A DNA stretch of 64,000 nt. Source: Escherichia coli (GTDB lineage: Bacteria > Pseudomonadota > Gammaproteobacteria > Enterobacterales > Enterobacteriaceae). Location: NCBI RefSeq assembly GCF_002854065.1, contig NZ_CP024152.1, one strand, 5' to 3'. The notes under the pieces were generated by a model. It was not told the origin of the DNA and did not search any database. It saw only the letters and a list, made by a program, of their open reading frames with translations. Positions 16,280 to 50,192 of this stretch are shown one piece after another; the stretch's first letter is position 1, and the number at the start of each line of letters is the position of its first letter. A program made the translations under genes and the position numbers.

Positions 16280-16684
16280 ATGTCACGTATTCGTGTCGTA
16301 GCGGCCCGTCTGTACGCCGCATTTATCCACGCACAACTGTTTGTAATGTCATGCCGGAGCAAACTGACTAAGTTCCTGCTGCTCATTCCCATGATGTTGC
16401 TGCCCAAAGCCGTTCTTGCCGATGGAGATCTTGCCGATATGGTTCGCAATGTCGAACAAGGTGCCAAAACAGCACAGTCATCATCACTGACTATTGCGCA
16501 GTTCATCGGCGTAATTCTGTTTCTCGGGGGCCTGATTGGCCTGAAAAAAGTTGGGAAACAAGGGGGGATGGGACTGGCTAGTTGCATTGTATCTATCGTC
16601 ATTGGGGCGGTACTTGTCGCCGGACCTGAAATGATGAGTCGCAGCCAGAAACAGTTGGGGATTTCCTCAATTTCCATTGGCTAA
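16280..16684 (+). CDS. traR: TraR membrane protein (134 aa)
   Basis: AAGGAG RBS; hydrophobic helices. Confidence 0.6.
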   Translation: MSRIRVVAARLYAAFIHAQLFVMSCRSKLTKFLLLIPMMLLPKAVLADGDLADMVRNVEQGAKTAQSSSLTIAQFIGVILFLGGLIGLKKVGKQGGMGLASCIVSIVIGAVLVAGPEMMSRSQKQLGISSISIG

Positions 16685-16747
16685 TCTTGTCCAGGGCACT
16701 GGCATTTATCCGGTGCCCTTCCTGTTCGGCAATACAAGGAGGCACAT

Positions 16748-16936
16748 ATGTCTGCCTGGAGCCCGGAGCACATAACGTTACGACGAACAGAAAACGGCAA
16801 TGTGATTGCCCACGACAGTCGGGACGATCAGGAATTCATTTTTGCAGAATGCTGTTCCGATGAAATCGCAAACATCATTCTGGAAGCCGTGAAACGTTAC
16901 ACCAGTACGGAGCCTGCTCATGCAACACAGCATTAA
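16748..16936 (+). CDS. traS: TraS small protein (62 aa)
   Basis: AAGGAGG RBS 7 nt upstream; position matches R64. Confidence 0.5.
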   Translation: MSAWSPEHITLRRTENGNVIAHDSRDDQEFIFAECCSDEIANIILEAVKRYTSTEPAHATQH

Positions 16937-28012: not shown

Positions 28013-28165
28013 TTAACGTTTAACTTCGTAGGCTAACGTTGCCACAAGCACTGTGTTTCCCTGCTGGAGCCGGAGTCCGCAAAGCGAATCCCTCACCATC
28101 CAGACAAAACACAGAATCGTCACACAGATGACGATTAACATCATTAAAAACGTTCGCTGTGGCAT
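28013..28165 (-). CDS. pndA: PndA, Hok-family type I toxin (50 aa)
   Basis: Manual translation: MPQRTFLMMLIVICVTILCFVWMVRDSLCGLRLQQGNTVLVATLAYEVKR, with the Hok-family pattern of a TM helix followed by SLC and AYE. Below the ORF-track size cutoff. Confidence 0.8.
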   Translation of the reverse strand: MPQRTFLMMLIVICVTILCFVWMVRDSLCGLRLQQGNTVLVATLAYEVKR

Positions 28166-34228: not shown

Positions 34229-34261
34229 GGCCGCGCCGGATTCTGGCGCGGCCTTTTTTTT
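34229..34261 (+). terminator. Rho-independent terminator between convergent trbC and nikB
   Basis: GGCCGCGCC...GGCGCGGCC stem followed by T8. Confidence 0.6.
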
Positions 34262-36959
34262 AACCTGGAGAAGGCGGTTCCCAGCGTTTATCCTGCTCCG
34301 GCGGAGGCAGTGATGCGTCATCGTTGCTGTTCGCCGCGATATAATCGCGGTAGTAGCGTTCACTTCCTTCACGGTGATGATCCACGTCCGGTCGCGTAAT
34401 CCTGTAGTCTTCGTGACCGGTACGGCCTGTCACATTATGCCAGGCAACCATTTCAGCAAAGACCTGGTTAAATTGTTTGTCGTTTCCTTCTGGTTCAAAA
34501 CCCATGCGTGGATCACGCCCGAATAATACCGGTGCAATCAAATCCAGTTTATCTGCCAGCGCATTGCGGTCATGGTGATTACGGAAAACAACCCTGTCAC
34601 CATAATCCGTACAGACAAACTCTCCCGTCCGACGGTCACGGAAACGAACACTCCCGTTCTTCTGCAGACGGGCCTCGAGATCACCGGTATTACCGTATAC
34701 CGGCGTTCCGCCCGGTTCACAAAGCACGACACAGCGGTCTGTCGTCGTTGTGCGTGACCTGTCTTTACGGCGATCGCGATAATCCCAGCCTCTCAACTGC
34801 GATACAGCAGCCCTGTCTCCCTGAGCAGCCTGAATTTCGACCCACTGACGGTAAGAGGGTGGATACCACTTCCCGTCAGCAATAAGTTTCTGTCGCTCAT
34901 CCCTGATGTCTTCTTTCAGCCTGATCAATGCCTGCATTCGCTGAACTTCTGCAATGTGATAATGCAGCTTACGTAATGCCGGATCATCGTACTGCGCACG
35001 AATGTGTGACTTCCGCAGACGGCATGCCTGATGAATTTCCCGACAACGTTCCCCATAACGCAGATCTGGTTTACGCCATTGTTCACGCCATGCCAGATAG
35101 CGGGCACGCAGGTCAGCACGGGCCTCAGCTCTGGCTTCACGTCGCTGCCGGCGCAGCATTGGGTCACGTTTACTGCTGACCCCGTACCTGTCACTGACAG
35201 CCAGCTCCGGGTTATAGCGACTTTCAGGTTGCACCCTGTCAAACAAATCTGCTGGGGCACTCACAAAAGGTCCGGCCTGTGGCTCTGCACGCCCCAGTGT
35301 CAGATCAGGATGAATGCTGCTGGCCTTCACCGGCGTTTGCTCATGATTAAAGGCATCAACGACAACAAGCCCGTGATGTTGTTTCTGTAGCATCAGTCCC
35401 TGTTGTGCAAACAGCTCATGACAACGCTGCCAGGTAAACTCACCCTGTGTGATCATTTCTTCAATCTGAGGGCTACAATGGCTGATGCTGTATCCCCACA
35501 GACTTTCTTTGTCAGAAAACAGTTCGCGTTTGATAGCCCCCTGCGGCCCCGTGCCTGTACGCATACGGTGCCATTCTTTATCGGTCGCAGGACAGCTCTC
35601 CATACGACGACCACGGAAGCGTTCTGTTGGCGTAACCTGGCGGAAAATATCTGTTGGTACAGGCTGCCAGCCACCATCGAGTTGATTCACATTGTCGAGC
35701 GTCAGCAGCGACCATACGCTGTCAGCACGAACGGGAGTCTGGTTATGATCATAACCGTCACAGATAACCAGGTGACCATGCTGAACACGCATCCATAATC
35801 CCGCTTCAGCCAGTGTGCGGTGAATAGCCTGGCAGTTTTCCAGCCGTCCTTCCCGTGCCATTTCCGGCAGACGTTCTCCAAGGTGACGACAGGCATACTG
35901 CTGCAGACTTTCTGTTTCAGCGATTTTTTCCGGGCGAACATCAGCGGCAATGAAGTCCGGATTATAGCGTCCTGGTGCTTCCACCTGGCTGAAAATGTCT
36001 TTTGGTACTGGCGTGTAGTCACCCATTTTTTTCATGAGTTTTTCTGCACACCAGGAGGGACCAAACGAGTCAAGCTGTACACCTTCCCTGTTGCGATCCC
36101 AGCCATCCATCACCAGAAATTTTCCTTCCATCTGAGACAGGTACAGACCATCTTCCGCAAGACGACGATGCAGGGATAACCAGTCATTTACAGGTTCACT
36201 GCGTAAACCAGCGACCGCTGTCTGCGCGACATACTCGCGAAAAGTTTGTTTTTTTCCGCGTGTCCACGCGTTCTGGCGATCACGTTCAACGGCAGTTTTG
36301 CGAACGATACGATTTCCCGGCGCATGGACCCAGCAACCGTTATCCGGAGCAAAACCATGCTTCAGTTCAAGTTCACGGCAGGCACGGCTGAGTTTTTCCT
36401 GACTCCATGAAAGGCAATTCAGATAACCTGTAACCGGATGTACCCGGTTGACCGCAACGTGAACATGCAGGTTATCAGTATCGGTATGTACGGCAGAAAC
36501 ATACTGATGTTCACCCAGCCCGAGGGATTTCAGGGTATGGCGTACACTGTCATAAATCTGTTCCGGACGCGGGCTTTCATGGGCCTGCCAGGAAAGAATG
36601 TAGTGAAAAACAGGATCAGTATTATCTTTCGCATAGTGTGCCTGCTGTGCAATGTACTCCATATCTGCAGCAGCAGTTTCAAGCGATGTACAGTTGTGAA
36701 AACAGGTCACACCGTAAAAGTTAACCCATTCGCAGCCGTCCTTCATGACATCAACCAGCGCCACGAATGACTCATTTCGAAGGCGTGTCGCATAATCAAC
36801 AAGGCGACTGAAACGGCTCCGGTGCGGTTGTTCAGCCTGCGAAGAAGAAGATAAATTCAGTTCCTCATCGGTCATGTCATCCCGGACCGAGACGTAGGAC
36901 ACCAGGTCTTCGAACGAAGACTTGCCGTCCCTTCTCTTTTTCGGAATGACTGCATTCAC
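34260..36959 (-). CDS. nikB: NikB relaxase (899 aa)
   Basis: Relaxase His-triad motif HTDTDNLHVHVAVN; large ORF adjacent to nikA and oriT; GTG start with GAGGA RBS. Confidence 0.85.
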   Translation of the reverse strand: MNAVIPKKRRDGKSSFEDLVSYVSVRDDMTDEELNLSSSSQAEQPHRSRFSRLVDYATRLRNESFVALVDVMKDGCEWVNFYGVTCFHNCTSLETAAADMEYIAQQAHYAKDNTDPVFHYILSWQAHESPRPEQIYDSVRHTLKSLGLGEHQYVSAVHTDTDNLHVHVAVNRVHPVTGYLNCLSWSQEKLSRACRELELKHGFAPDNGCWVHAPGNRIVRKTAVERDRQNAWTRGKKQTFREYVAQTAVAGLRSEPVNDWLSLHRRLAEDGLYLSQMEGKFLVMDGWDRNREGVQLDSFGPSWCAEKLMKKMGDYTPVPKDIFSQVEAPGRYNPDFIAADVRPEKIAETESLQQYACRHLGERLPEMAREGRLENCQAIHRTLAEAGLWMRVQHGHLVICDGYDHNQTPVRADSVWSLLTLDNVNQLDGGWQPVPTDIFRQVTPTERFRGRRMESCPATDKEWHRMRTGTGPQGAIKRELFSDKESLWGYSISHCSPQIEEMITQGEFTWQRCHELFAQQGLMLQKQHHGLVVVDAFNHEQTPVKASSIHPDLTLGRAEPQAGPFVSAPADLFDRVQPESRYNPELAVSDRYGVSSKRDPMLRRQRREARAEARADLRARYLAWREQWRKPDLRYGERCREIHQACRLRKSHIRAQYDDPALRKLHYHIAEVQRMQALIRLKEDIRDERQKLIADGKWYPPSYRQWVEIQAAQGDRAAVSQLRGWDYRDRRKDRSRTTTTDRCVVLCEPGGTPVYGNTGDLEARLQKNGSVRFRDRRTGEFVCTDYGDRVVFRNHHDRNALADKLDLIAPVLFGRDPRMGFEPEGNDKQFNQVFAEMVAWHNVTGRTGHEDYRITRPDVDHHREGSERYYRDYIAANSNDDASLPPPEQDKRWEPPSPG

Positions 36960-36969
36960 CGGAGAATCC

Positions 36970-37302
36970 TCAACCTTCCATTAACTGTTTACGCAATGTA
37001 TTTGTAAGTTCGGTTATGGCAACAAGCACTTCTGCGTATTCCTTGTCACCGGTTCTTTTTCCCTGAACAAACAGATGCTTCTGCATCCTTCCCAGTCTCA
37101 TTAACTCCTTCAGAAAAGCATCATCTGTACGGGAGTTAATTCGCTTATTCAGTGCTGCATTTCGGATGTAAGCAGATACAGTAAGTCCGGAATCTTCAGC
37201 TTTTTTCCTGATGGTTTCATCCTCAACAGGAGAGAATCTGAGTGTCCTGACAACTGTCTTTTGCCGTACCTCACTTTTCTTTCTTACCGCACTATCACTC
37301 AC
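36970..37302 (-). CDS. nikA: NikA, oriT-binding relaxosome accessory protein (110 aa)
   Basis: Small basic ORF immediately upstream of nikB and next to the oriT inverted repeats. Confidence 0.8.
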   Translation of the reverse strand: MSDSAVRKKSEVRQKTVVRTLRFSPVEDETIRKKAEDSGLTVSAYIRNAALNKRINSRTDDAFLKELMRLGRMQKHLFVQGKRTGDKEYAEVLVAITELTNTLRKQLMEG

Positions 37303-38808: not shown

Positions 38809-38853
38809 ATTGTCTCCTCATCGTCACGACTGCCGGGTCAGCCAGGTCATTTC

Positions 38854-39180
38854 CCGGAGGAGCGAAGCTCCTTCTGCCGTCCGGGTCTTAGGGTATTTCC
38901 CCGCAGTGGACCTTTCCGACGGGGGACGCTCACCACGTCACGGGGCAGTTGTCCGGGGGCAGACGCAAAAGTTTTTGACGCCAGCGGCAAAAAGTTTTGT
39001 GGCTGGTACATCTCTCCCCTGGACGACTGAAACGGGATGTGGTCGTGTATGTACCCCCGGAAAGTCCGTCTGCGGAGAACAGGCCGCAGTGCGGCGGCAG
39101 ACAGGCAAGAGACAGCTGCGCCATCAGGCGCAGTGGCCTTACACACCGTAAGGTGTGCAGGGAGCGCCGCATCCGGCGCG
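38854..39180. promoter_or_regulatory. Structured repeat family 1, copy 1 (ssi/Frpo-like single-strand promoter candidate)
   Basis: About 330 bp, highly similar to 41711-42207 and 48054-48551; contains internal palindromes (GCGCCATCAGGCGC, ACACACCGT-AGGTGTG). Confidence 0.55.
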
Positions 39181-39281
39181 TCTGAAGAAAAACGACGGCA
39201 CAACAATGGCATGTGGTGGTCACTGGCACACCACTCCCGCACAGGTGAAAACAGAGAAAACCGCACGACATTTACAAACAA

Positions 39282-39667: not shown

Positions 39668-39838
39668 CTACTGCTCATCAGGAAACAGCTTTTTCAGTTC
39701 TTCACCGGAAAGTCCGGTCGCCTCCTGAATCCGTTCCGGCGTCCAGCCCATATCCCGCAGCCGGCAGGCTATTTCCCGCGCCACTTCAAGAGCACCTTTT
39801 TCAAAACCTTTCTGTATAAGACGTTCTGCAATCGTCAT
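39668..39838 (-). CDS. Standalone small protein homologous to the Rpn C-terminal tail (56 aa; RpnS-like)
   Basis: MTIAERLIQKGFEKGALEVAREIACRLRDMGWTPERIQEATGLSGEELKKLF aligns residue by residue with the last 57 aa of the upstream Rpn protein; separated from rpn by an intrinsic terminator. Confidence 0.5.
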   Translation of the reverse strand: MTIAERLIQKGFEKGALEVAREIACRLRDMGWTPERIQEATGLSGEELKKLFPDEQ

Positions 39839-39862
39839 GCTGTTTGCTCTGCTCCTGCTGAC

Positions 39863-39887
39863 AAAAAAGCCCGGCATTTTGCCGGGC
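39863..39887 (-). terminator. Rho-independent terminator after the rpn-like gene
   Basis: On the minus strand, GCCCGGC-AAAAT-GCCGGGC hairpin followed by T6. Confidence 0.55.
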
Positions 39888-39900
39888 TGTGAGGTTCTCA

Positions 39901-40860
39901 TCAGTGAATGATTTTCTTCAGTTCGTCATCGGAAAGTCCGGTAGCCTGCTTAATCTGCTCCGGCGTCATCCCCATTTTCTGAAGCTGGCACGCAATAGCC
40001 AGGGCTTTTTCAAGCGCACCTTCCATCCTGCCCTCCTGGCGACCTTTTTGCTCAAGACGTTCTGCGATAGTCATCAGTTTATCCTCATGCTGCGGCAGAC
40101 GCTCAGCCAGCGCCCGCATAAATTCCGGTGATACAGAGTCCCCTGCGTTAACGATGTAATGAATCAGAACACGCACCTGCTCGTCTGAAATTTCCACCAT
40201 GACCTGCGGGAGTTTGTCCAGCAGCTCCATCATGTCACGATGGCGGATATGCTTCATCAGCAGCGTCAGTGCGGCCATCCGGCGATGGTTCATGATTTCA
40301 TTGTCATCAACGACAGTGATATCAACCAGCGGAAACGGCTTTGTGTATATTTTAGCCGCAAGTGCCGGATTCTCAAAACAGTCCAGCCAGTTCATGCTGT
40401 ACGGGTACGGGCTGCGCTCACCATGATAGAACAGCACAGGAATCACCAGTGGCAACGTTTTGTGCTGCTCCAGATGTCTCTGCATCGCCGCCACACTGTA
40501 ACGTAACATGCGGAAAGGCATGTACAGATTTTCGGTGCTCTGGTGCTCGATGAGCGTATAAACATAGCCGTCTTCACCCCCGGTGGTTTTCACACTCCAG
40601 AGGATATCGCTGGCGTACTGATGCAGGTCCGGCTCAACAAAGGTGGCGGGTTCCAGCTTCAGCGTGGACAGGTCGCACAACTGCCGGTACTCCGCCGGAA
40701 GATGCAGTTCCAGAAAATCTCTGGCGACGTCGGGATTCGCCAGGAACGACCGGAACGCGGCATCATGCGGCGTGGGCGTCGTGGTGGTTTTCTTCTTACT
40801 CACGGTTCCTCCTGGTGAGATGTCTGAACGTATCCTGCCGCCTGCACAGGCAGACGGCAA
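39901..40860 (-). CDS. Rpn-family (YhgA-like, PD-(D/E)xK) recombination-promoting nuclease (319 aa)
   Basis: Rpn/YhgA-type N-terminal nuclease-domain signature and the characteristic C-terminal tail; internal in-frame ATG at 40074 with a GAGGA SD could produce the C-terminal small protein. Confidence 0.6.
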   Translation of the reverse strand: MPSACAGGRIRSDISPGGTVSKKKTTTTPTPHDAAFRSFLANPDVARDFLELHLPAEYRQLCDLSTLKLEPATFVEPDLHQYASDILWSVKTTGGEDGYVYTLIEHQSTENLYMPFRMLRYSVAAMQRHLEQHKTLPLVIPVLFYHGERSPYPYSMNWLDCFENPALAAKIYTKPFPLVDITVVDDNEIMNHRRMAALTLLMKHIRHRDMMELLDKLPQVMVEISDEQVRVLIHYIVNAGDSVSPEFMRALAERLPQHEDKLMTIAERLEQKGRQEGRMEGALEKALAIACQLQKMGMTPEQIKQATGLSDDELKKIIH

Positions 40861-40867
40861 GGGTTAA

Positions 40868-41134
40868 TCAGTGGCAGACCCGCTCAATTTCAAGCGCGCG
40901 GAGCAGGTGGCCCCATTCGCTGACTTTCATAGCGGGGATACGCACCCGCTTCTGCTCACTGCAGCGTCTGGCGATATGGCCGCTCATCGCCAGGACGTCC
41001 GGGTTAATCTCATCCTGTGCCAGCTCCTGACGTCTGAAGCGGGTATGGCGGTGCAGGGGTTTATTCTCCCGCAGGCACTCTTCACGCAGACGCTTTACAT
41101 ACTCGGCGGTTGCGAAGATAATTGATGGTCTCAC
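40868..41134 (-). CDS. Hypothetical leading-region protein (88 aa)
   Basis: ORF downstream of structured repeat copy 2. Confidence 0.4.
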   Translation of the reverse strand: MRPSIIFATAEYVKRLREECLRENKPLHRHTRFRRQELAQDEINPDVLAMSGHIARRCSEQKRVRIPAMKVSEWGHLLRALEIERVCH

Positions 41135-41225
41135 AAATATTTCTCCTTATGTTGTTGATGACTGCCGCTCTTCCTGGCGGGGAAGTAACGGCGGAGAGAG
41201 GCAGGGTTTATCGCCCTGCCTTTTT

Positions 41226-41660
41226 TCATTTCGGACAGCGACGCAGTGCCAGCGCGAGCGCTTTCATCTTCCAGCCTTCCGGCGTGCGGTACATCACCTT
41301 CCAGTAGCCGTCGATGAACACATAATGGAAGCGCACCTCTTCAGTGCTTTCAGTGGCAATAGCCTCCATGAAAGAACGGTACTCACGCGCCTCACTGTCC
41401 ATCCGGAAACCACTGTCACGTCCGTAATAAGCCGTCACACCGTCCACCGGGTTCTGAAGCGTATGCCCGGCGGGTTTGTCGCAACGGGGACCGAGGCAAC
41501 GGATATCACCGTGTTCAACCAGGGCTTCGGCCTGCTGACCGGTGGCATAGTGGGTATGCAGGATGCGACCGTTCCAGGTCGGCTCACCGTGCAGGTGGCA
41601 GTAAACGGTACGGAACACCCCGTCGCGGCAAAAAACGGAAATCGTGCTGCTGACTGTCAT
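41226..41660 (-). CDS. Hypothetical leading-region protein (144 aa)
   Basis: First ORF downstream of structured repeat copy 2; Cys/His-containing N-terminus. Confidence 0.45.
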   Translation of the reverse strand: MTVSSTISVFCRDGVFRTVYCHLHGEPTWNGRILHTHYATGQQAEALVEHGDIRCLGPRCDKPAGHTLQNPVDGVTAYYGRDSGFRMDSEAREYRSFMEAIATESTEEVRFHYVFIDGYWKVMYRTPEGWKMKALALALRRCPK

Positions 41661-41710
41661 GAAAACGTCTCCTTCTGCTGAATCAGGTCGCCGGGCCGAC
41701 CGGTTGCTCC

Positions 41711-42207
41711 CCGGAGGGGCGAAAGCCCCTTCTGCCGTCCACTTCTTCGGGGTTTCTCCCCGCAGTGGACCTTTCCGATGGGGCGTCCGTCACCACGTCA
41801 CGGGGCAGCTGTCCGGGGGCGGACGCAAAATTTTTTGCCGGGTTTATGGCTAAAAATTTTGTGGACGGTATATCTTCCCCTGGACTGCTGAAACGGGATG
41901 TGGTTACTCCAGCCCCCGGAAAGTCCACAGCGGGAAACAGGCCGCAGGGGTGGCGGCGGAAGGGTTGACTGCGCCATCAGGCGCAGTGGCCTTACACACC
42001 GTCAGGTGTGCAGGGAGCGCCGTTTCCGGCGCGACAGGGGCGGCGCGACCGGAACGGTCGCTGCAAGCCTGGTTTTTCAGACATCGGACCGTAGCGGCAG
42101 CCCGAAACCGCGCCAGCGGGTTCGGCGGAGACTGGCGGGTGCGCCAGCAGCTGCCTGTCGGAGTCGGGCCTGACGACCGGATGCCGCCAGGCAGCCGGGA
42201 GCCGAAG
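41711..42207. promoter_or_regulatory. Structured repeat family 1, copy 2 (ssi/Frpo-like)
   Basis: About 500 bp, near-identical over most of its length to 48054-48551 and over about 330 bp to 38854-39180. Confidence 0.6.
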
Positions 42208-42388
42208 GTGTCCCCGCCTCCGGAAATCAGAACAACAGAAACGACATAACAGAAAAATGCCTCACACCATGACGGGCAGGAAGGGCAGCGCCGCAGGCGC
42301 GGCCCTCCTGCATTTCAGGCAGGCGTAAGCCTGCCAGGGTTTTCCGGCGGCCTGGCAGGCCATACCCCCGCCGGAGCGGGGGAGTAAA

Positions 42389-42889
42389 TCACCGACGGAA
42401 CACATGACCGTCAATAAAGGTGAAGGAGTCCAGGAATAAATCCCGCGCATACGCCTCATAGTCAAAATAGAGCGCCACCGTCTCCGGCACGTCAGCCAGC
42501 AGGCCGGTATCACTGGCGAACTCAACCGCAAAAGCCTCCTCACTGTCAGCCTCGCCCCACCAGGCATCGCGGAAGGTGTCAAAATCCGTCTCACCGGTAT
42601 CCTCCACCCAGAGACGATAAGCCTCTTCGCAGCCTTCATCCCGTGCCTGGCGGAAGCCTTCAACCCAGGCCCAGTTGATATGGCATTCAGAGGCCATATT
42701 CCCCGGGAATCCCTCATAATCCTGAAACATCAGTTCAGGATCGGCTTCATCCTGGTGAAGAGCACGGCAGGCGGCGAAAAAGTCGCGCTCATCATCAAAC
42801 GTGGTCAGGTCAAACCAGCGTCCGGCGATGCTTCCACAGTTGTATTTGTGCCAGGTTCCAACGTATACAGCAGGTGCAACAACAGACAT
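42389..42889 (-). CDS. ardA: Antirestriction protein ArdA (166 aa)
   Basis: Starts [27 protein letters not shown] and has the acidic DNA-mimic composition; GGAGGA RBS. The ORF-track 301-aa reading is an upstream extension through the repeat. Confidence 0.85.
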
Positions 42890-42921
42890 TCCCGAATCCT
42901 CCATAGTCACATGTTCTGCGG

Positions 42922-43248
42922 CACCGGGCGGTGCCGTGCCTCCATAAAAGCCGGGCGATAAGGCGGGGATGCATAGGGCGCAAGGGAAGCCGCAGCCTGA
43001 CGCACACGGCTGGCGGGAGTTGGAGGGTGAGACCGCGAAATCTGAGCGGGTGAACGACCGGAAAATCACGGCAGACGGGAAGGAGGGACCGGGTGACCGC
43101 AGCGGCGAAGCGTACCCTTGCATCCCTGCCAGCCCGGCTAAGATGGAGGCACGGCACAGCCCGCACACGACGCTGAGGCCACAGAGCTGAAAACCCACAA
43201 GGCCATGCCCCGCATGGCCGGGTAAAAGCGGAGCCGCCGGCGACTTCC
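42922..43248. promoter_or_regulatory. Structured repeat family 2, copy A (ssDNA promoter candidate upstream of ardA)
   Basis: Perfect 15-bp inverted repeat GTGCCGTGCCTCCAT (42931-42945) / ATGGAGGCACGGCAC (43143-43157) about 200 bp apart, plus further paired arms; second copy at 49870-50192. Confidence 0.55.
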
Positions 43249-43351
43249 TTATTCCGGCGAGTGCAGAGGACACGCCGCATGACCTCCAGACCACCCCTGA
43301 TATGAAACGATCATGATCGGCGTGTCCCTGCGTAAAATATACATGTCTGGT

Positions 43352-48053: not shown

Positions 48054-48551
48054 AGAGGAGCGAAAGCTCCTCCTGCCGTCCACTTCACAGGGGTTTCTCC
48101 CCGCAGTGGACCTTTCCGATGGGGGCCCGTTTACCGCCTCACGGGACAGCTGTCCGGGGGCGGACGCAAAATTTTTAGCCGGGTTCATGGCTAAAAATTT
48201 TGTGGCCGGTGCATCTCACCCTGGACAGATGGAACGGGAGGGGGTTACGTCTGCCCCCCGGAAAGTCCACAGCGGGAAACAGGCCGCAGGGGTGGCGGCA
48301 GGAGGGAGGACTGCTGCGCCATCAGGCGCAGTTTCCTCACACACCGTCAGGTGTGCAGGGAGCGCAGGTCACGGCGCGACAGGGGCGGCGCGACCGGAAC
48401 GGTCGCTGCAAGCCGGGTTTTCACGCATCGGACCGTAGCGGCAGCCCGAAACCGCGCCAGCGGGTTCGGCGGAGACTGGCGGGTGCGCCAGCAGCTGCCT
48501 GTCGGAGTCGGGCCTGACGACCGGATGCCGCCAGGCAGCCGGGAGCCGAAG
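48054..48551. promoter_or_regulatory. Structured repeat family 1, copy 3 (ssi/Frpo-like), upstream of ssb
   Basis: About 500-bp near-duplicate of 41711-42207, positioned immediately upstream (minus sense) of ssb. Confidence 0.6.
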
Positions 48552-48753
48552 TGGGCGCAATAAAAGACAGCCAGAAACGGTGACAGTGTCACGGAATATC
48601 ACACCTGTTCCCTGCATACAGCCATACACTACCTTCTGACCGGAAAGCCGGGCCGGCAGCGCCGCAGGCGCTGCACCCCGCATTTCCGGCAGGCGTCAGC
48701 CTGCCAGGGGTTTTCGCGCGGGCTGACAGGCGGCCTCCACCGCCTGCCCTGTA

Positions 48754-49836: not shown

Positions 49837-49869
49837 GATGTTTTCCTCCGTTGTTCACATATTCCGCGA

Positions 49870-50192
49870 CACCGGGCGGTGCCGTGCCTCCATAAAAGCC
49901 GGGCGAACAGGCGGGGATGCAGGGGCGCAAGGGAAGCCGCAGCCTGACGCACACGGCTGACGGGAGTTGCAGGGTGAGACCGCGAAATCTGAGCGGGTGA
50001 ACGACCGGAAAATCACGGCAGACGGGAAGGAGGGACCGGGTGACCGCCGCGTTCATTTTACCCTTGCATCCCCGCCAGCCCGGCTAAGATGGAGGCACGG
50101 CACAGCCCGCACACGACACGGCGGCCACATAACTGAAAACCCACAAGGCCATGCCCCGCATGGCCGGGTAAAGCGGAGCCGGCGGCGACTTC
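49870..50192. promoter_or_regulatory. Structured repeat family 2, copy B (ssDNA promoter candidate)
   Basis: Near-duplicate of 42922-43248 including the 15-bp inverted repeat arms. Confidence 0.55.

What the first reader, a model, noticed from the sequence alone, without database searches (positions are those of the whole stretch)
40868..41660. Two uncharacterised small genes directly driven by structured repeat copy 2
The 144-aa (41226-41660, Cys/His-containing) and 88-aa (40868-41134) ORFs follow repeat copy 2 on the minus strand and precede the Rpn module. Their position mirrors ardA and ssb relative to their repeats, suggesting early-expressed establishment or anti-defence proteins.
Basis: inference. 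Interest (0 to 1): 0.45.

Follow-up and report, generated by a model that had tools for sequence, protein, structure and literature searches.

The report
Early-expressed unknown genes of IncI plasmid
The two small genes are real, sit first behind a single-stranded-DNA promoter in the entry end of an IncI conjugative plasmid, and are already catalogued in the literature as early-expressed genes of unknown function, one of them under a wrong database name.

Summary
The window is an IncI-type conjugative plasmid. The 144-aa (41226-41660) and 88-aa (40868-41134) minus-strand ORFs are genuine genes with strong ribosome-binding sites. They lie directly downstream of repeat copy 2 (41690-42250), which is the Frpo/ssi class-1 single-stranded-DNA promoter "ssi2".

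The locus is already described. Plasmid pESBL encodes the identical 144-aa protein (Hp16), and ColIb-P9 the identical 88-aa protein. RNA-seq and 5'RACE on pESBL (97.8% identical here) showed the ssi operons induced up to about 500-fold in fresh transconjugants. Samuel et al. 2024 list the two genes as leading-region families 23 and 1.

What I add:
- The "PndC / Hok-Sok" label on the 144-aa protein is wrong.
- That protein belongs to a large phage-plasmid family (1,939 clusters, PHROG 1987, no Pfam). Its predicted fold is very confident (pLDDT 96.6) and matches no solved structure.
- It has conserved His/Asp/Arg positions, and a sharply bounded divergent allele (51% identity between flanks that are at least 97% identical).
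- The 88-aa protein is a basic helical YdfB/YdaB protein confined to Enterobacterales plasmids.

Function is untested for both. An anti-defence or establishment role is plausible but not shown. Both genes are dispensable for laboratory transfer.

The parts
41690..42250 (-). Class-1 ssDNA promoter repeat, copy 2 (= ssi2 of ColIb-P9/pESBL; homologous to F Frpo1/Frpo2). It acts when the + strand (the T-strand) is single-stranded, and transcription runs toward lower coordinates.
   Evidence: It aligns with copies A and C. The fold has dG -170.9 kcal/mol, z -7.8. It shows 80-87% blastn matches to the F plasmid at positions just upstream of ssb and ygeA. Published ssi1-3 operon descriptions.
41726..41968 (+). 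Core long imperfect hairpin of the repeat on the T-strand, with an AT-rich apex at about 41826-41860.
   Evidence: In the consensus structure of 7 IncI and IncF copies, 22 of 68 pairs keep pairing through changes on both sides. The coordinates are approximate, mapped from alignment columns.
41226..41660 (-). 144-aa gene (pESBL Hp16; Samuel et al. family 23; mis-named 'PndC'). It is the first cistron after ssi2.
   Evidence: PHROG 1987 at E 1.3e-20. 1,939 representative clusters. pLDDT 96.6.
41200..41220 (-). Intercistronic hairpin GGCAGGG-CGATAAA-CCCTGCC just after the 144-aa stop codon. It has no T-run, so it is not a canonical terminator.
   Evidence: Read from the sequence. No minus-strand terminator-like site was found in 40700-42400.
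40868..41134 (-). 88-aa gene (pESBL Hp17; YdfB/YdaB/YgdA; Samuel et al. family 1). It is the second cistron.
   Evidence: dN/dS 0.11. pI 9.9. Three predicted helices, pLDDT 78.5.
39901..40803 (-). Rpn-family (YhgA-like) nuclease gene, probably the third cistron of the same unit.
   Evidence: PF04754 at E 1.5e-78. TIGR01784. Annotated start in L001.
39668..39901 (-). 77-aa ORF resembling the C-terminal tail of Rpn (a small RpnS-like protein). It is the last gene before the convergent HTH gene.
   Evidence: TIGR01784 positions 217-273 at E 2e-7. Direct repeat 39690-39798 vs 39914-40022 at 76%.
42907..43226 (-). A different (class-2) repeat upstream of ardA (42389-42889). Its second copy, 49855-50172, lies upstream of the klcA/ardB-like gene.
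   Evidence: 94% match upstream of the F antirestriction gene. Class-2 promoters are described in PMC12672017.

Best explanation
The two ORFs are the first two cistrons of the ssi2 operon in the leading region of an IncI-type conjugative plasmid.

How the operon works:
- Shown or established: at conjugation the + strand of the window enters the recipient 5'-first from oriT (about 37.3-37.5 kb).
- Shown for homologous copies in F, ColIb-P9 and pESBL: the roughly 500-nt class-1 repeat at 41690-42250 folds on that single strand into a long imperfect hairpin that host RNA polymerase uses as a promoter.
- Transcription runs toward oriT through the 144-aa gene and the 88-aa gene. Inferred: it probably continues through the Rpn nuclease gene and its small tail-like ORF.
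- Expression stops once the complementary strand is made.

The proteins:
- The 144-aa protein is a compact, soluble alpha/beta protein of a large family shared by phages and plasmids. It has an invariant His66 and near-invariant His22, Asp24 (His in this allele), Arg81 and Asp82. I infer these form a catalytic or ligand-binding site.
- The 88-aa protein is a small, basic, helical protein confined to Enterobacterales conjugative plasmids.
- My best guess (inference) is that both act in the first minutes in the new host. The 144-aa protein would be a counter-defence or host-takeover factor. The 88-aa protein would be a nucleic-acid-binding accessory. Neither is part of the transfer machinery.
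For: Gene reality.

Promoter repeat and structure.

Orientation and position: oriT lies between nikA and the yggA-like gene, and all leading-region genes are on the minus strand.

Same proteins in studied plasmids: the identical 144-aa protein in pESBL (Hp16) and the identical 88-aa protein in ColIb-P9, with 97.8% and 95.6% DNA identity.

Published early expression:
- The ssi1-3 operons are induced up to about 500-fold at 15 min, with start sites mapped (PMC12672017).
- The ssi operons are described as including 'PndC' (PMC10104558).
- Frpo deletions abolish early expression in F (PMC9849209).

Leading-region enrichment on the T-strand: families 1 and 23 of PMC11541004.

Pointers toward counter-defence for the 144-aa protein:
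- It has phage homologues in arrays of small hypothetical genes.
- It shows an allele replacement: 50.7% identity against ArdA 98.2%, the 88-aa protein 97.7% and Rpn 97.4%.
- A 43%-identical homologue sits beside ArdC-like genes.
- One member is fused to a WYL_2/DUF2829 domain.

For the 88-aa family: in an IncF plasmid a homologue is again the first gene after a Frpo-like copy.
Against: - No function has been tested for either protein.
- Tn-seq in pESBL scored Hp16 as 0.76 non-essential, 0.24 'essential for maintenance' and 0 required for transfer. It scored Hp17 as 1.00 non-essential.
- Neither protein matched PADLOC defence-system models, Pfam or NCBIfam, which cover the ArdA and ArdC antirestriction families among others.
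- The 144-aa model found no matches among solved structures.
- I could not locate convincing -35/-10 hexamers in the hairpin.
- I could not read the per-gene induction values.
- The window allele has His instead of the near-invariant Asp24 and Arg instead of Ser54, so a conserved site may be altered.
- The WYL_2 fusion rests on a single 1-kb metagenome contig.
- That transcription continues into Rpn is inferred only from the absence of a terminator.
Confidence: 0.6

Rival explanations
1. The 144-aa protein is PndC, a component of a Hok/Sok-type post-segregational killing system. This is what GenBank and UniRef call it, and it is how Samuel et al. 2024 classed family 23.
For: The names attached to cluster members and plasmid records. 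The label 'PndC (Hok/Sok TA related)' in Supplementary Table 1 of PMC11541004. The same name is used in PMC10104558.
Against: - There is no Hok/Gef or any other Pfam or NCBIfam match.
- There is no significant alignment to the plasmid's own Hok-family toxin (26 residues, 19% identity, E 0.25), and no hydrophobic segment (maximum Kyte-Doolittle 0.73).
- The real hok/pndA gene of this plasmid is about 13 kb away, at 28016-28165, on the other side of nikAB-trbABC.
- The protein is a confidently folded globular domain of a mainly phage-borne family.
Confidence: 0.02
2. The two proteins are accessories of the downstream Rpn nuclease module, for example inhibitors, activators or regulators. They would have no independent role.
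For: - They have the same orientation as Rpn, with short gaps and no terminator-like site before it.
- In IncI plasmids families 23, 1 and RpnB sit at adjacent median positions 7, 6 and 4 from oriT.
- In IncF plasmids the neighbours of the 88-aa family are also DNA-acting enzymes: methylases and a DUF3560 protein.
Against: - The 144-aa family is mostly in phages, with no Rpn gene next to it.
- Its 43% homologue sits among ArdC-like genes without Rpn.
- IncF homologues of the 88-aa protein have no Rpn neighbour.
- pESBL carries an extra gene (Hp18) inserted between Hp17 and Rpn.
- The 144-aa allele swap left the 88-aa and Rpn genes unchanged.
Confidence: 0.12
3. They are establishment factors unrelated to host immunity. 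Examples would be helping complementary-strand synthesis, recircularisation, SOS or stress modulation, or reprogramming of host gene expression, as proposed for other leading-region proteins.
For: - Other leading-region genes have such roles: Ssb and PsiB, and YgeA, which is important for F conjugation.
- A recent preprint abstract assigns a host-reprogramming role to YfjB.
- The 88-aa protein is basic, pI 9.9.
- Hp16 has a 0.24 'maintenance' probability in Tn-seq.
Against: - Both genes were dispensable for transfer in pESBL Tn-seq.
- The deep allele dimorphism confined to the 144-aa gene and its presence in lytic jumbo and T4-like phages fit a conflict-driven function better than a housekeeping step of conjugation.
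Confidence: 0.22
4. One or both ORFs are not functional genes, and are chance ORFs or decaying remnants downstream of a repeat.
For: - Many truncated or frameshifted versions of the 88-aa protein appear in the protein database.
- Spurious ORFs are annotated inside the repeats themselves.
Against: - Both have strong ribosome-binding sites.
- dN/dS is about 0.1.
- There are 461 or more clusters for the 88-aa family and 1,939 for the 144-aa family.
- The structure predictions are confident.
- The genes are retained in at least 2,000 plasmids.
Confidence: 0.02

Closest known systems
ssi2 operon of IncI1 plasmids ColIb-P9 and pESBL (class-1 ssDNA promoter; Bates et al. 1999; Benz et al. 2023; Wen et al. 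2025)
   Same: The gene order is the same: ardA, ssi repeat, 144-aa, 88-aa, Rpn, then DUF4942, oriT and nikA. The 144-aa protein is identical to pESBL Hp16 and the 88-aa protein is identical to the ColIb-P9 protein. DNA identity is 95.6-97.8%.
   Different: The window plasmid types as IncI-gamma/K1 rather than IncI1. It lacks the extra Hp18 gene that pESBL carries between the 88-aa gene and Rpn.
F-plasmid Frpo1 and Frpo2 single-stranded promoters (Masai & Arai 1997; Couturier et al. 2023)
   Same: The repeat is homologous (75-87% blastn matches). The long hairpin is shared and shows compensatory changes. The orientation relative to oriT is the same, and both show transient early expression of downstream genes.
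   Different: In F the downstream genes are ygeA/ygeB and ssb-yfjA-yfjB-psiB-psiA. The annotated F leading region shows no 144-aa homologue. F YgeA shows no similarity to the 88-aa protein.
Samuel et al. 2024 leading-region gene families 23 ('PndC') and 1 (YdaB/YdfB/YgdA)
   Same: The names given to my homologues match those families. So do the T-strand orientation and the median positions of 7 and 6 from oriT, next to ArdA at 8 and RpnB at 4.
   Different: That paper files family 23 as Hok/Sok-related on the strength of the database name, which my tests contradict. I matched families by name and position, not by their HMMs.
PHROG 1987 / 23089 (phage proteins of unknown function; T4-GC_66 in cyanomyophages)
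   Same: The HMM matches at E 1.3e-20 and 4.4e-19 over nearly the full length. The fold matches predicted phage proteins at TM up to 0.86.
   Different: The plasmid allele replaces the near-invariant Asp24 with His and Ser54 with Arg. No member has a known function.
Known plasmid anti-restriction proteins (ArdA, ArdB/KlcA, ArdC)
   Same: They share the genomic neighbourhood, the T-strand orientation and control by an ssDNA promoter.
   Different: There is no sequence match to the ArdA or ArdC Pfam models or to any other Pfam/NCBIfam model, and no structural match to any solved structure.

Membership tests
Class-1 ssDNA promoter (Frpo/ssi) operon | Sequence homology of the upstream element to Frpo/ssi | tested here: met
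   Copy 2 aligns with copies A and C. It matches the F plasmid at the positions upstream of ssb and ygeA at 75-87%.
Class-1 ssDNA promoter (Frpo/ssi) operon | Stable long stem-loop on the transferred strand, conserved by compensatory change | tested here: met
   dG -170.9 kcal/mol, z -7.8. 22 of 68 pairs show changes on both sides across 7 copies.
Class-1 ssDNA promoter (Frpo/ssi) operon | Downstream genes oriented so that the T-strand is their template, transcribed toward oriT | tested here: met
   Genes are on the minus strand, with oriT between nikA (36970-37302) and the yggA-like gene. The pESBL oriT position is given in Table 2 of PMC4288162.
Class-1 ssDNA promoter (Frpo/ssi) operon | Hairpin reconstitutes -35 and -10 boxes | tested here: inconclusive
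   The hexamer scan gave only weak matches that are not conserved between copies.
Class-1 ssDNA promoter (Frpo/ssi) operon | Transient induction in transconjugants, with the start site inside or next to the hairpin | not testable with these tools
   Reported for ssi1-3 of pESBL, which is 97.8% identical here. Per-gene values were not readable.
PndC / Hok-Sok post-segregational killing | Reading frame overlapping and coupled to a Hok/Gef-family toxin gene | tested here: not met
   No Hok/Gef match. The plasmid's hok gene is at 28016-28165, 13 kb away, and there is no significant alignment to it (best E 0.25 over 26 residues).
PHROG 1987 (= Samuel family 23) phage-plasmid family | Full-length profile match | tested here: met
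   E 1.3e-20 over residues 1-126 of the protein. 1,939 relatives found by phmmer. BFVD fold matches at E 8e-14 and 8e-13.
PHROG 1987 (= Samuel family 23) phage-plasmid family | Conserved motif residues (Y20, H22, D24, S54, H66, R81, D82, Y113, W120) | tested here: inconclusive
   Seven of the nine are present. D24 is His and S54 is Arg in the window allele, while the alternative IncI allele keeps D24.
YdfB/YdaB/YgdA (= Samuel family 1) | Homology to proteins so named, with leading-region position on the T-strand | tested here: met
   The profile search returns proteins named YdaB and YdfB at 37-46% identity. IncF homologues lie in leading regions. Family description.
Known anti-restriction / anti-defence protein families | Sequence or fold similarity to a characterised inhibitor | tested here: not met
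Rpn toxin / small-Rpn antitoxin module | Similarity to the Rpn catalytic or C-terminal domain | tested here: not met
   Only the 319-aa and 77-aa ORFs match Rpn models. The 144-aa and 88-aa proteins do not.

The most novel reading that the evidence does not exclude
The 144-aa protein would represent a new, structurally unprecedented anti-defence family shared by jumbo phages, T4-like phages and IncI plasmids. Its conserved His/Asp/His/Arg/Asp cluster would destroy, sequester or block a host immune component. The deep allele dimorphism at an otherwise near-identical locus would reflect matching to different host defences. The 88-aa YdfB/YdaB protein, the largest leading-region family known, would be a second new early effector.
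Probability: 0.3. Interest if true: 0.7.

Novelty: already known. Interest (0 to 1): 0.35.

Why it matters
IncI plasmids are major carriers of ESBL and other resistance genes, and what they express in the first minutes in a new host decides whether they establish there.

These two genes belong to very abundant leading-region families. The 88-aa family is the largest such family in the 2024 survey. Neither has a known function.

Removing the misleading 'PndC' label matters for how the 144-aa protein is studied. So does showing that it is a confidently folded domain shared with phages, with no solved structural relative and a swapped allele. Together these make it a concrete candidate for anti-defence screening and for structure determination.

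Tried and rejected
- I tried to locate the -35/-10 boxes in the hairpin, both by hand and with a relaxed hexamer scan. I considered both possible geometries: the promoter template on the 5' arm or on the 3' arm. Nothing convincing or conserved emerged.
- The supplement of Wen et al. (per-gene fold changes, start-site figure) is not held.
- The AFDB50 fold library was unavailable.
- An Rfam scan of 30000-64000 found nothing.
- Genomic context of distant 144-aa homologues was mostly short metagenomic contigs full of unannotated small genes. Annotated phage contexts were arrays of hypothetical proteins.
- Longer family members were scanned for fused domains. I found only one WYL_2 fusion and one sub-threshold gp32-like hit.
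- A literature search by protein accession and PHROG id returned nothing.
- F YgeA was tested as a possible relative of the 88-aa protein and rejected.
- The PndC / Hok-Sok reading was rejected.

Full report
**What the window is.** The region matches IncI-gamma/K1 and IncI1 conjugative plasmids at up to 100% identity. The gene order on the minus strand, going from high to low coordinates, is:
- ssb, a DUF905 gene, a ParB-like gene, psiB, psiA, a 198-aa gene, ardA;
- the 144-aa ORF, the 88-aa ORF, an Rpn-family nuclease, a 77-aa ORF;
- a convergent HTH gene;
- a DUF4942 gene, a yggA-like gene, then nikA and nikB.

oriT lies between nikA and the yggA-like gene. The pESBL oriT position is given in Table 2 of PMC4288162. 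This is therefore the plasmid's leading region. The + strand of the window is the transferred strand, and every leading-region gene uses it as template.

**Checking the observation.**
- Both ORFs are at the stated coordinates.
- Each has an AAGGAG ribosome-binding site 8 nt before its start codon (ATG at 41660, GTG at 41134).
- Both are annotated CDSs in identical public records (WP_000218858.1 and WP_001247862.1).
- Against a diverged IncI plasmid, the 88-aa gene has dN/dS 0.11.
- Within the common allele, both genes show pN/pS of about 0.1 on few differences.

The repeat is real. Three copies of about 500 nt align, and each ends 30-60 nt before a start codon:

| Copy | Coordinates | Gene that follows |
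|---|---|---|
| A | 38850-39280 | DUF4942 gene |
| B (copy 2) | 41690-42250 | 144-aa gene |
| C | 48055-48551 | ssb |

- The single-stranded + strand of copy 2 folds far better than shuffles do (dG -170.9 kcal/mol, z -7.8).
- In an alignment of seven IncI and IncF copies, 22 of 68 predicted pairs keep pairing through changes on both sides.
- Copy 2 also matches F at the positions upstream of ssb and ygeA, which are Frpo2 and Frpo1.

One correction. ardA is preceded by a different repeat (42907-43226). Its only other copy (49855-50172) precedes the klcA/ardB-like gene.

**What is already published.**
- ColIb-P9, the plasmid in which ssi sites were defined, is collinear with the window at 95.6% identity and encodes the identical 88-aa protein.
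- pESBL is 97.8% identical from ardA through both genes and encodes the identical 144-aa protein. It calls the two genes Hp16 and Hp17.
- Benz et al. describe the IncI leading region as three operons transcribed from ssi3 to ssi1, and list 'PndC' among the products.
- Wen et al. removed donor cells and sequenced RNA from fresh pESBL transconjugants. They found six leading-region operons induced up to about 500-fold at 15 min and declining afterwards. They mapped start sites for all six promoters.
- Wen et al. also classified ssi1-3 and the Frpo elements as class 1, the ardA and klcA promoters as class 2, and the M.EcoGIX promoter as class 3. The two repeat families I found correspond to their classes 1 and 2.
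- In F, deleting Frpo1 or Frpo2 abolishes early production of the downstream proteins.
- Samuel et al. list the relevant gene families as enriched in leading regions on the T-strand:

| Family | Names given | ORFs | Median position from oriT |
|---|---|---|---|
| 1 (the largest) | YdaB/YdfB/YgdA | 4,739 | 6 |
| 23 | 'PndC (Hok/Sok TA related)' | 2,203 | 7 |
| 15 | ArdA | 2,814 | 8 |
| 18 | RpnB | 2,601 | 4 |
| 24 | DUF4942 | 2,171 | 1 |

This is the gene order in the window. I matched families by name and position, not with their HMMs.

- Tn-seq in pESBL found neither gene required for transfer. Hp16 scored 0.76 non-essential, 0.24 maintenance and 0 transfer. Hp17 scored 1.00 non-essential.

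**The 144-aa protein.**
- It has no Pfam, NCBIfam or PADLOC match. None of 74 relatives matches a Pfam family in any meaningful way.
- It matches PHROG 1987 and PHROG 23089, both of unknown function.
- An exhaustive search found 1,939 representative clusters at E of 0.001 or better.
- Relatives occur in several kinds of phage: jumbo phages (GAP32, BF, XbC2 and Erwinia phages), KVP40-like vibriophages and cyanomyophages. There they sit in long arrays of small hypothetical genes.
- The family consensus has an invariant His66. Near-invariant positions are Tyr20, His22, Asp24, Ser54, Arg81, Asp82, Tyr113 and Trp120.
- The window allele has His at position 24 and Arg at position 54. A second IncI allele keeps Asp24.
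- AlphaFold gives a very confident alpha/beta model (pLDDT 96.6, pTM 0.90).
- The viral structure library returns only uncharacterised phage proteins.
- I could not inspect the coordinates, so the idea that the conserved residues cluster into one site is an inference.

**The 'PndC' name is wrong.**
- There is no Hok/Gef domain.
- There is no hydrophobic segment and no significant alignment to the plasmid's own Hok toxin (best E 0.25 over 26 residues).
- The real hok/pndA gene lies at 28016-28165, on the far side of the transfer genes.

**An allele swap at the 144-aa gene.** A related IncI plasmid carries a 143-aa version at the same position. Nucleotide similarity to the window stops about 55 nt into the gene and resumes about 40 nt before its end. 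Protein identities between the two plasmids are:

| Protein | Identity |
|---|---|
| 144-aa | 50.7% (synonymous sites saturated) |
| ArdA | 98.2% |
| 88-aa | 97.7% |
| Rpn | 97.4% |

This is an old allele moved in as a cassette, not recent fast evolution. Such dimorphism is common in genes involved in host-parasite conflict, but it does not prove that role. Two further circumstantial points: a 43%-identical homologue lies among ArdC-like genes, and one metagenomic member is fused to a WYL_2/DUF2829 domain.

**The 88-aa protein.**
- It has no Pfam or NCBIfam match.
- Close relatives occur only in enterobacterial plasmids. A profile search finds 461 clusters, all in Enterobacterales, some named YdaB or YdfB.
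- Homologues at 40-45% identity are present in more than 3,000 further plasmids, including IncF leading regions.
  - In one IncF plasmid, the homologue is the first gene after a Frpo-like copy and precedes a DUF3560 gene and a methyltransferase.
  - In a Klebsiella IncF plasmid, it precedes an N6 methylase and an antirestriction gene.
- The protein is basic (pI 9.9).
- It is predicted as three helices with moderate confidence (best model pLDDT 78.5, the other four about 60).
- The most conserved stretch is R-V-R-I-P-A-M-x-x-S-E-W-G.
- Some database variants carry a compensated frameshift across the middle third but keep both ends in frame. This suggests the middle is a tolerant linker.

**How it most likely works.** On entry of the T-strand, ssi2 folds and recruits host RNA polymerase. 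A transcript runs toward oriT through the 144-aa and 88-aa genes. It probably continues into Rpn and the 77-aa tail-like ORF, because I found no terminator-like site, only a short hairpin without a T-run at 41200-41220. Expression ends when the strand becomes double-stranded.

The status of each step is as follows.
- The promoter mechanism and early induction are shown for homologous or near-identical plasmids. Here they are inferred by identity.
- The extent of the operon is inferred.
- The protein functions are inferred. I favour a counter-defence or host-takeover role for the 144-aa protein and a nucleic-acid-binding accessory role for the 88-aa protein, with low confidence.

**Verdict.** However, the locus, its promoter and the abundance of both gene families are already in the literature, so the finding is not new.

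What remains open is what the two proteins do, and that question is directly testable. The useful additions from this work are:
- the refutation of the PndC label;
- the size and phage distribution of the 144-aa family;
- its confident fold, which matches no solved structure;
- its conserved polar residues;
- its allele swap.

Noticed in passing
window 42907-43226 and 49855-50172: A second repeat family, unrelated to the Frpo-like one, sits directly upstream of ardA and of the klcA/ardB-like antirestriction gene. It matches the F plasmid upstream of its antirestriction gene at 94%. It corresponds to the 'class 2' ssDNA promoters of Wen et al. 2025.
   Followed up: partly
window 39668-39901 vs 39914-40022: The 77-aa ORF just after the Rpn gene is a diverged duplicate of the Rpn C-terminal tail (76% DNA identity; TIGR01784 positions 217-273). 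This is a free-standing small-Rpn-like protein next to the full-length nuclease.
   Followed up: partly
window 41264-41605 compared with L006 8056-8394: The body of the 144-aa gene has been replaced by a 51%-identical allele in a related IncI plasmid. The flanks stay 84-96% identical at the DNA level and at least 97% at the protein level.
   Followed up: yes
window 28016-28165 (minus strand): The plasmid's genuine Hok/Gef-family (pndA-type) toxin gene lies here, 13 kb from the gene that databases call 'PndC'.
   Followed up: yes
homologues of window 40868-41134 (P0065, P0080, P0093): Some 88-aa variants read the middle roughly 30 codons in another frame and then return to frame, keeping the N- and C-terminal thirds intact. 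These are compensated frameshifts or sequencing errors.
   Followed up: no
window 41094-41122 (+ strand): The best sigma-70 consensus match in the region (TTTACA-17-GATAAT, 10 of 12) lies antisense inside the start of the 88-aa gene and points toward the 144-aa gene. It could be chance or an antisense promoter active in double-stranded DNA.
   Followed up: no
window 34260-37302 vs L006 12405-15469: NikA (64.5%) and NikB (72.4%) are far more diverged between the two plasmids than the adjacent leading-region genes (95-99%). The relaxase module and the leading region therefore have different histories.
   Followed up: no
L004 (pESBL) 16433-16894: pESBL carries an extra 129-aa gene (Hp18) inserted between the 88-aa gene and Rpn. 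The window and ColIb-P9 lack it.
   Followed up: no
window 48369-48683 and 42890-43294: Public annotation and mechanical ORF calling place 'hypothetical proteins' or 5' extensions inside the promoter repeats. Examples are a 104-aa CDS over copy C, a 301-aa extended ArdA ORF, and 184-251-aa 'PndC' versions. These are probably artefacts.
   Followed up: no
pESBL Tn-seq, Hp16 (equivalent to window 41226-41660): Hp16 is the only gene in this stretch with a non-zero 'essential for maintenance' probability (0.24). Part of the gene was therefore under-represented for transposon insertions in the donor library. This is unexplained.
   Followed up: no
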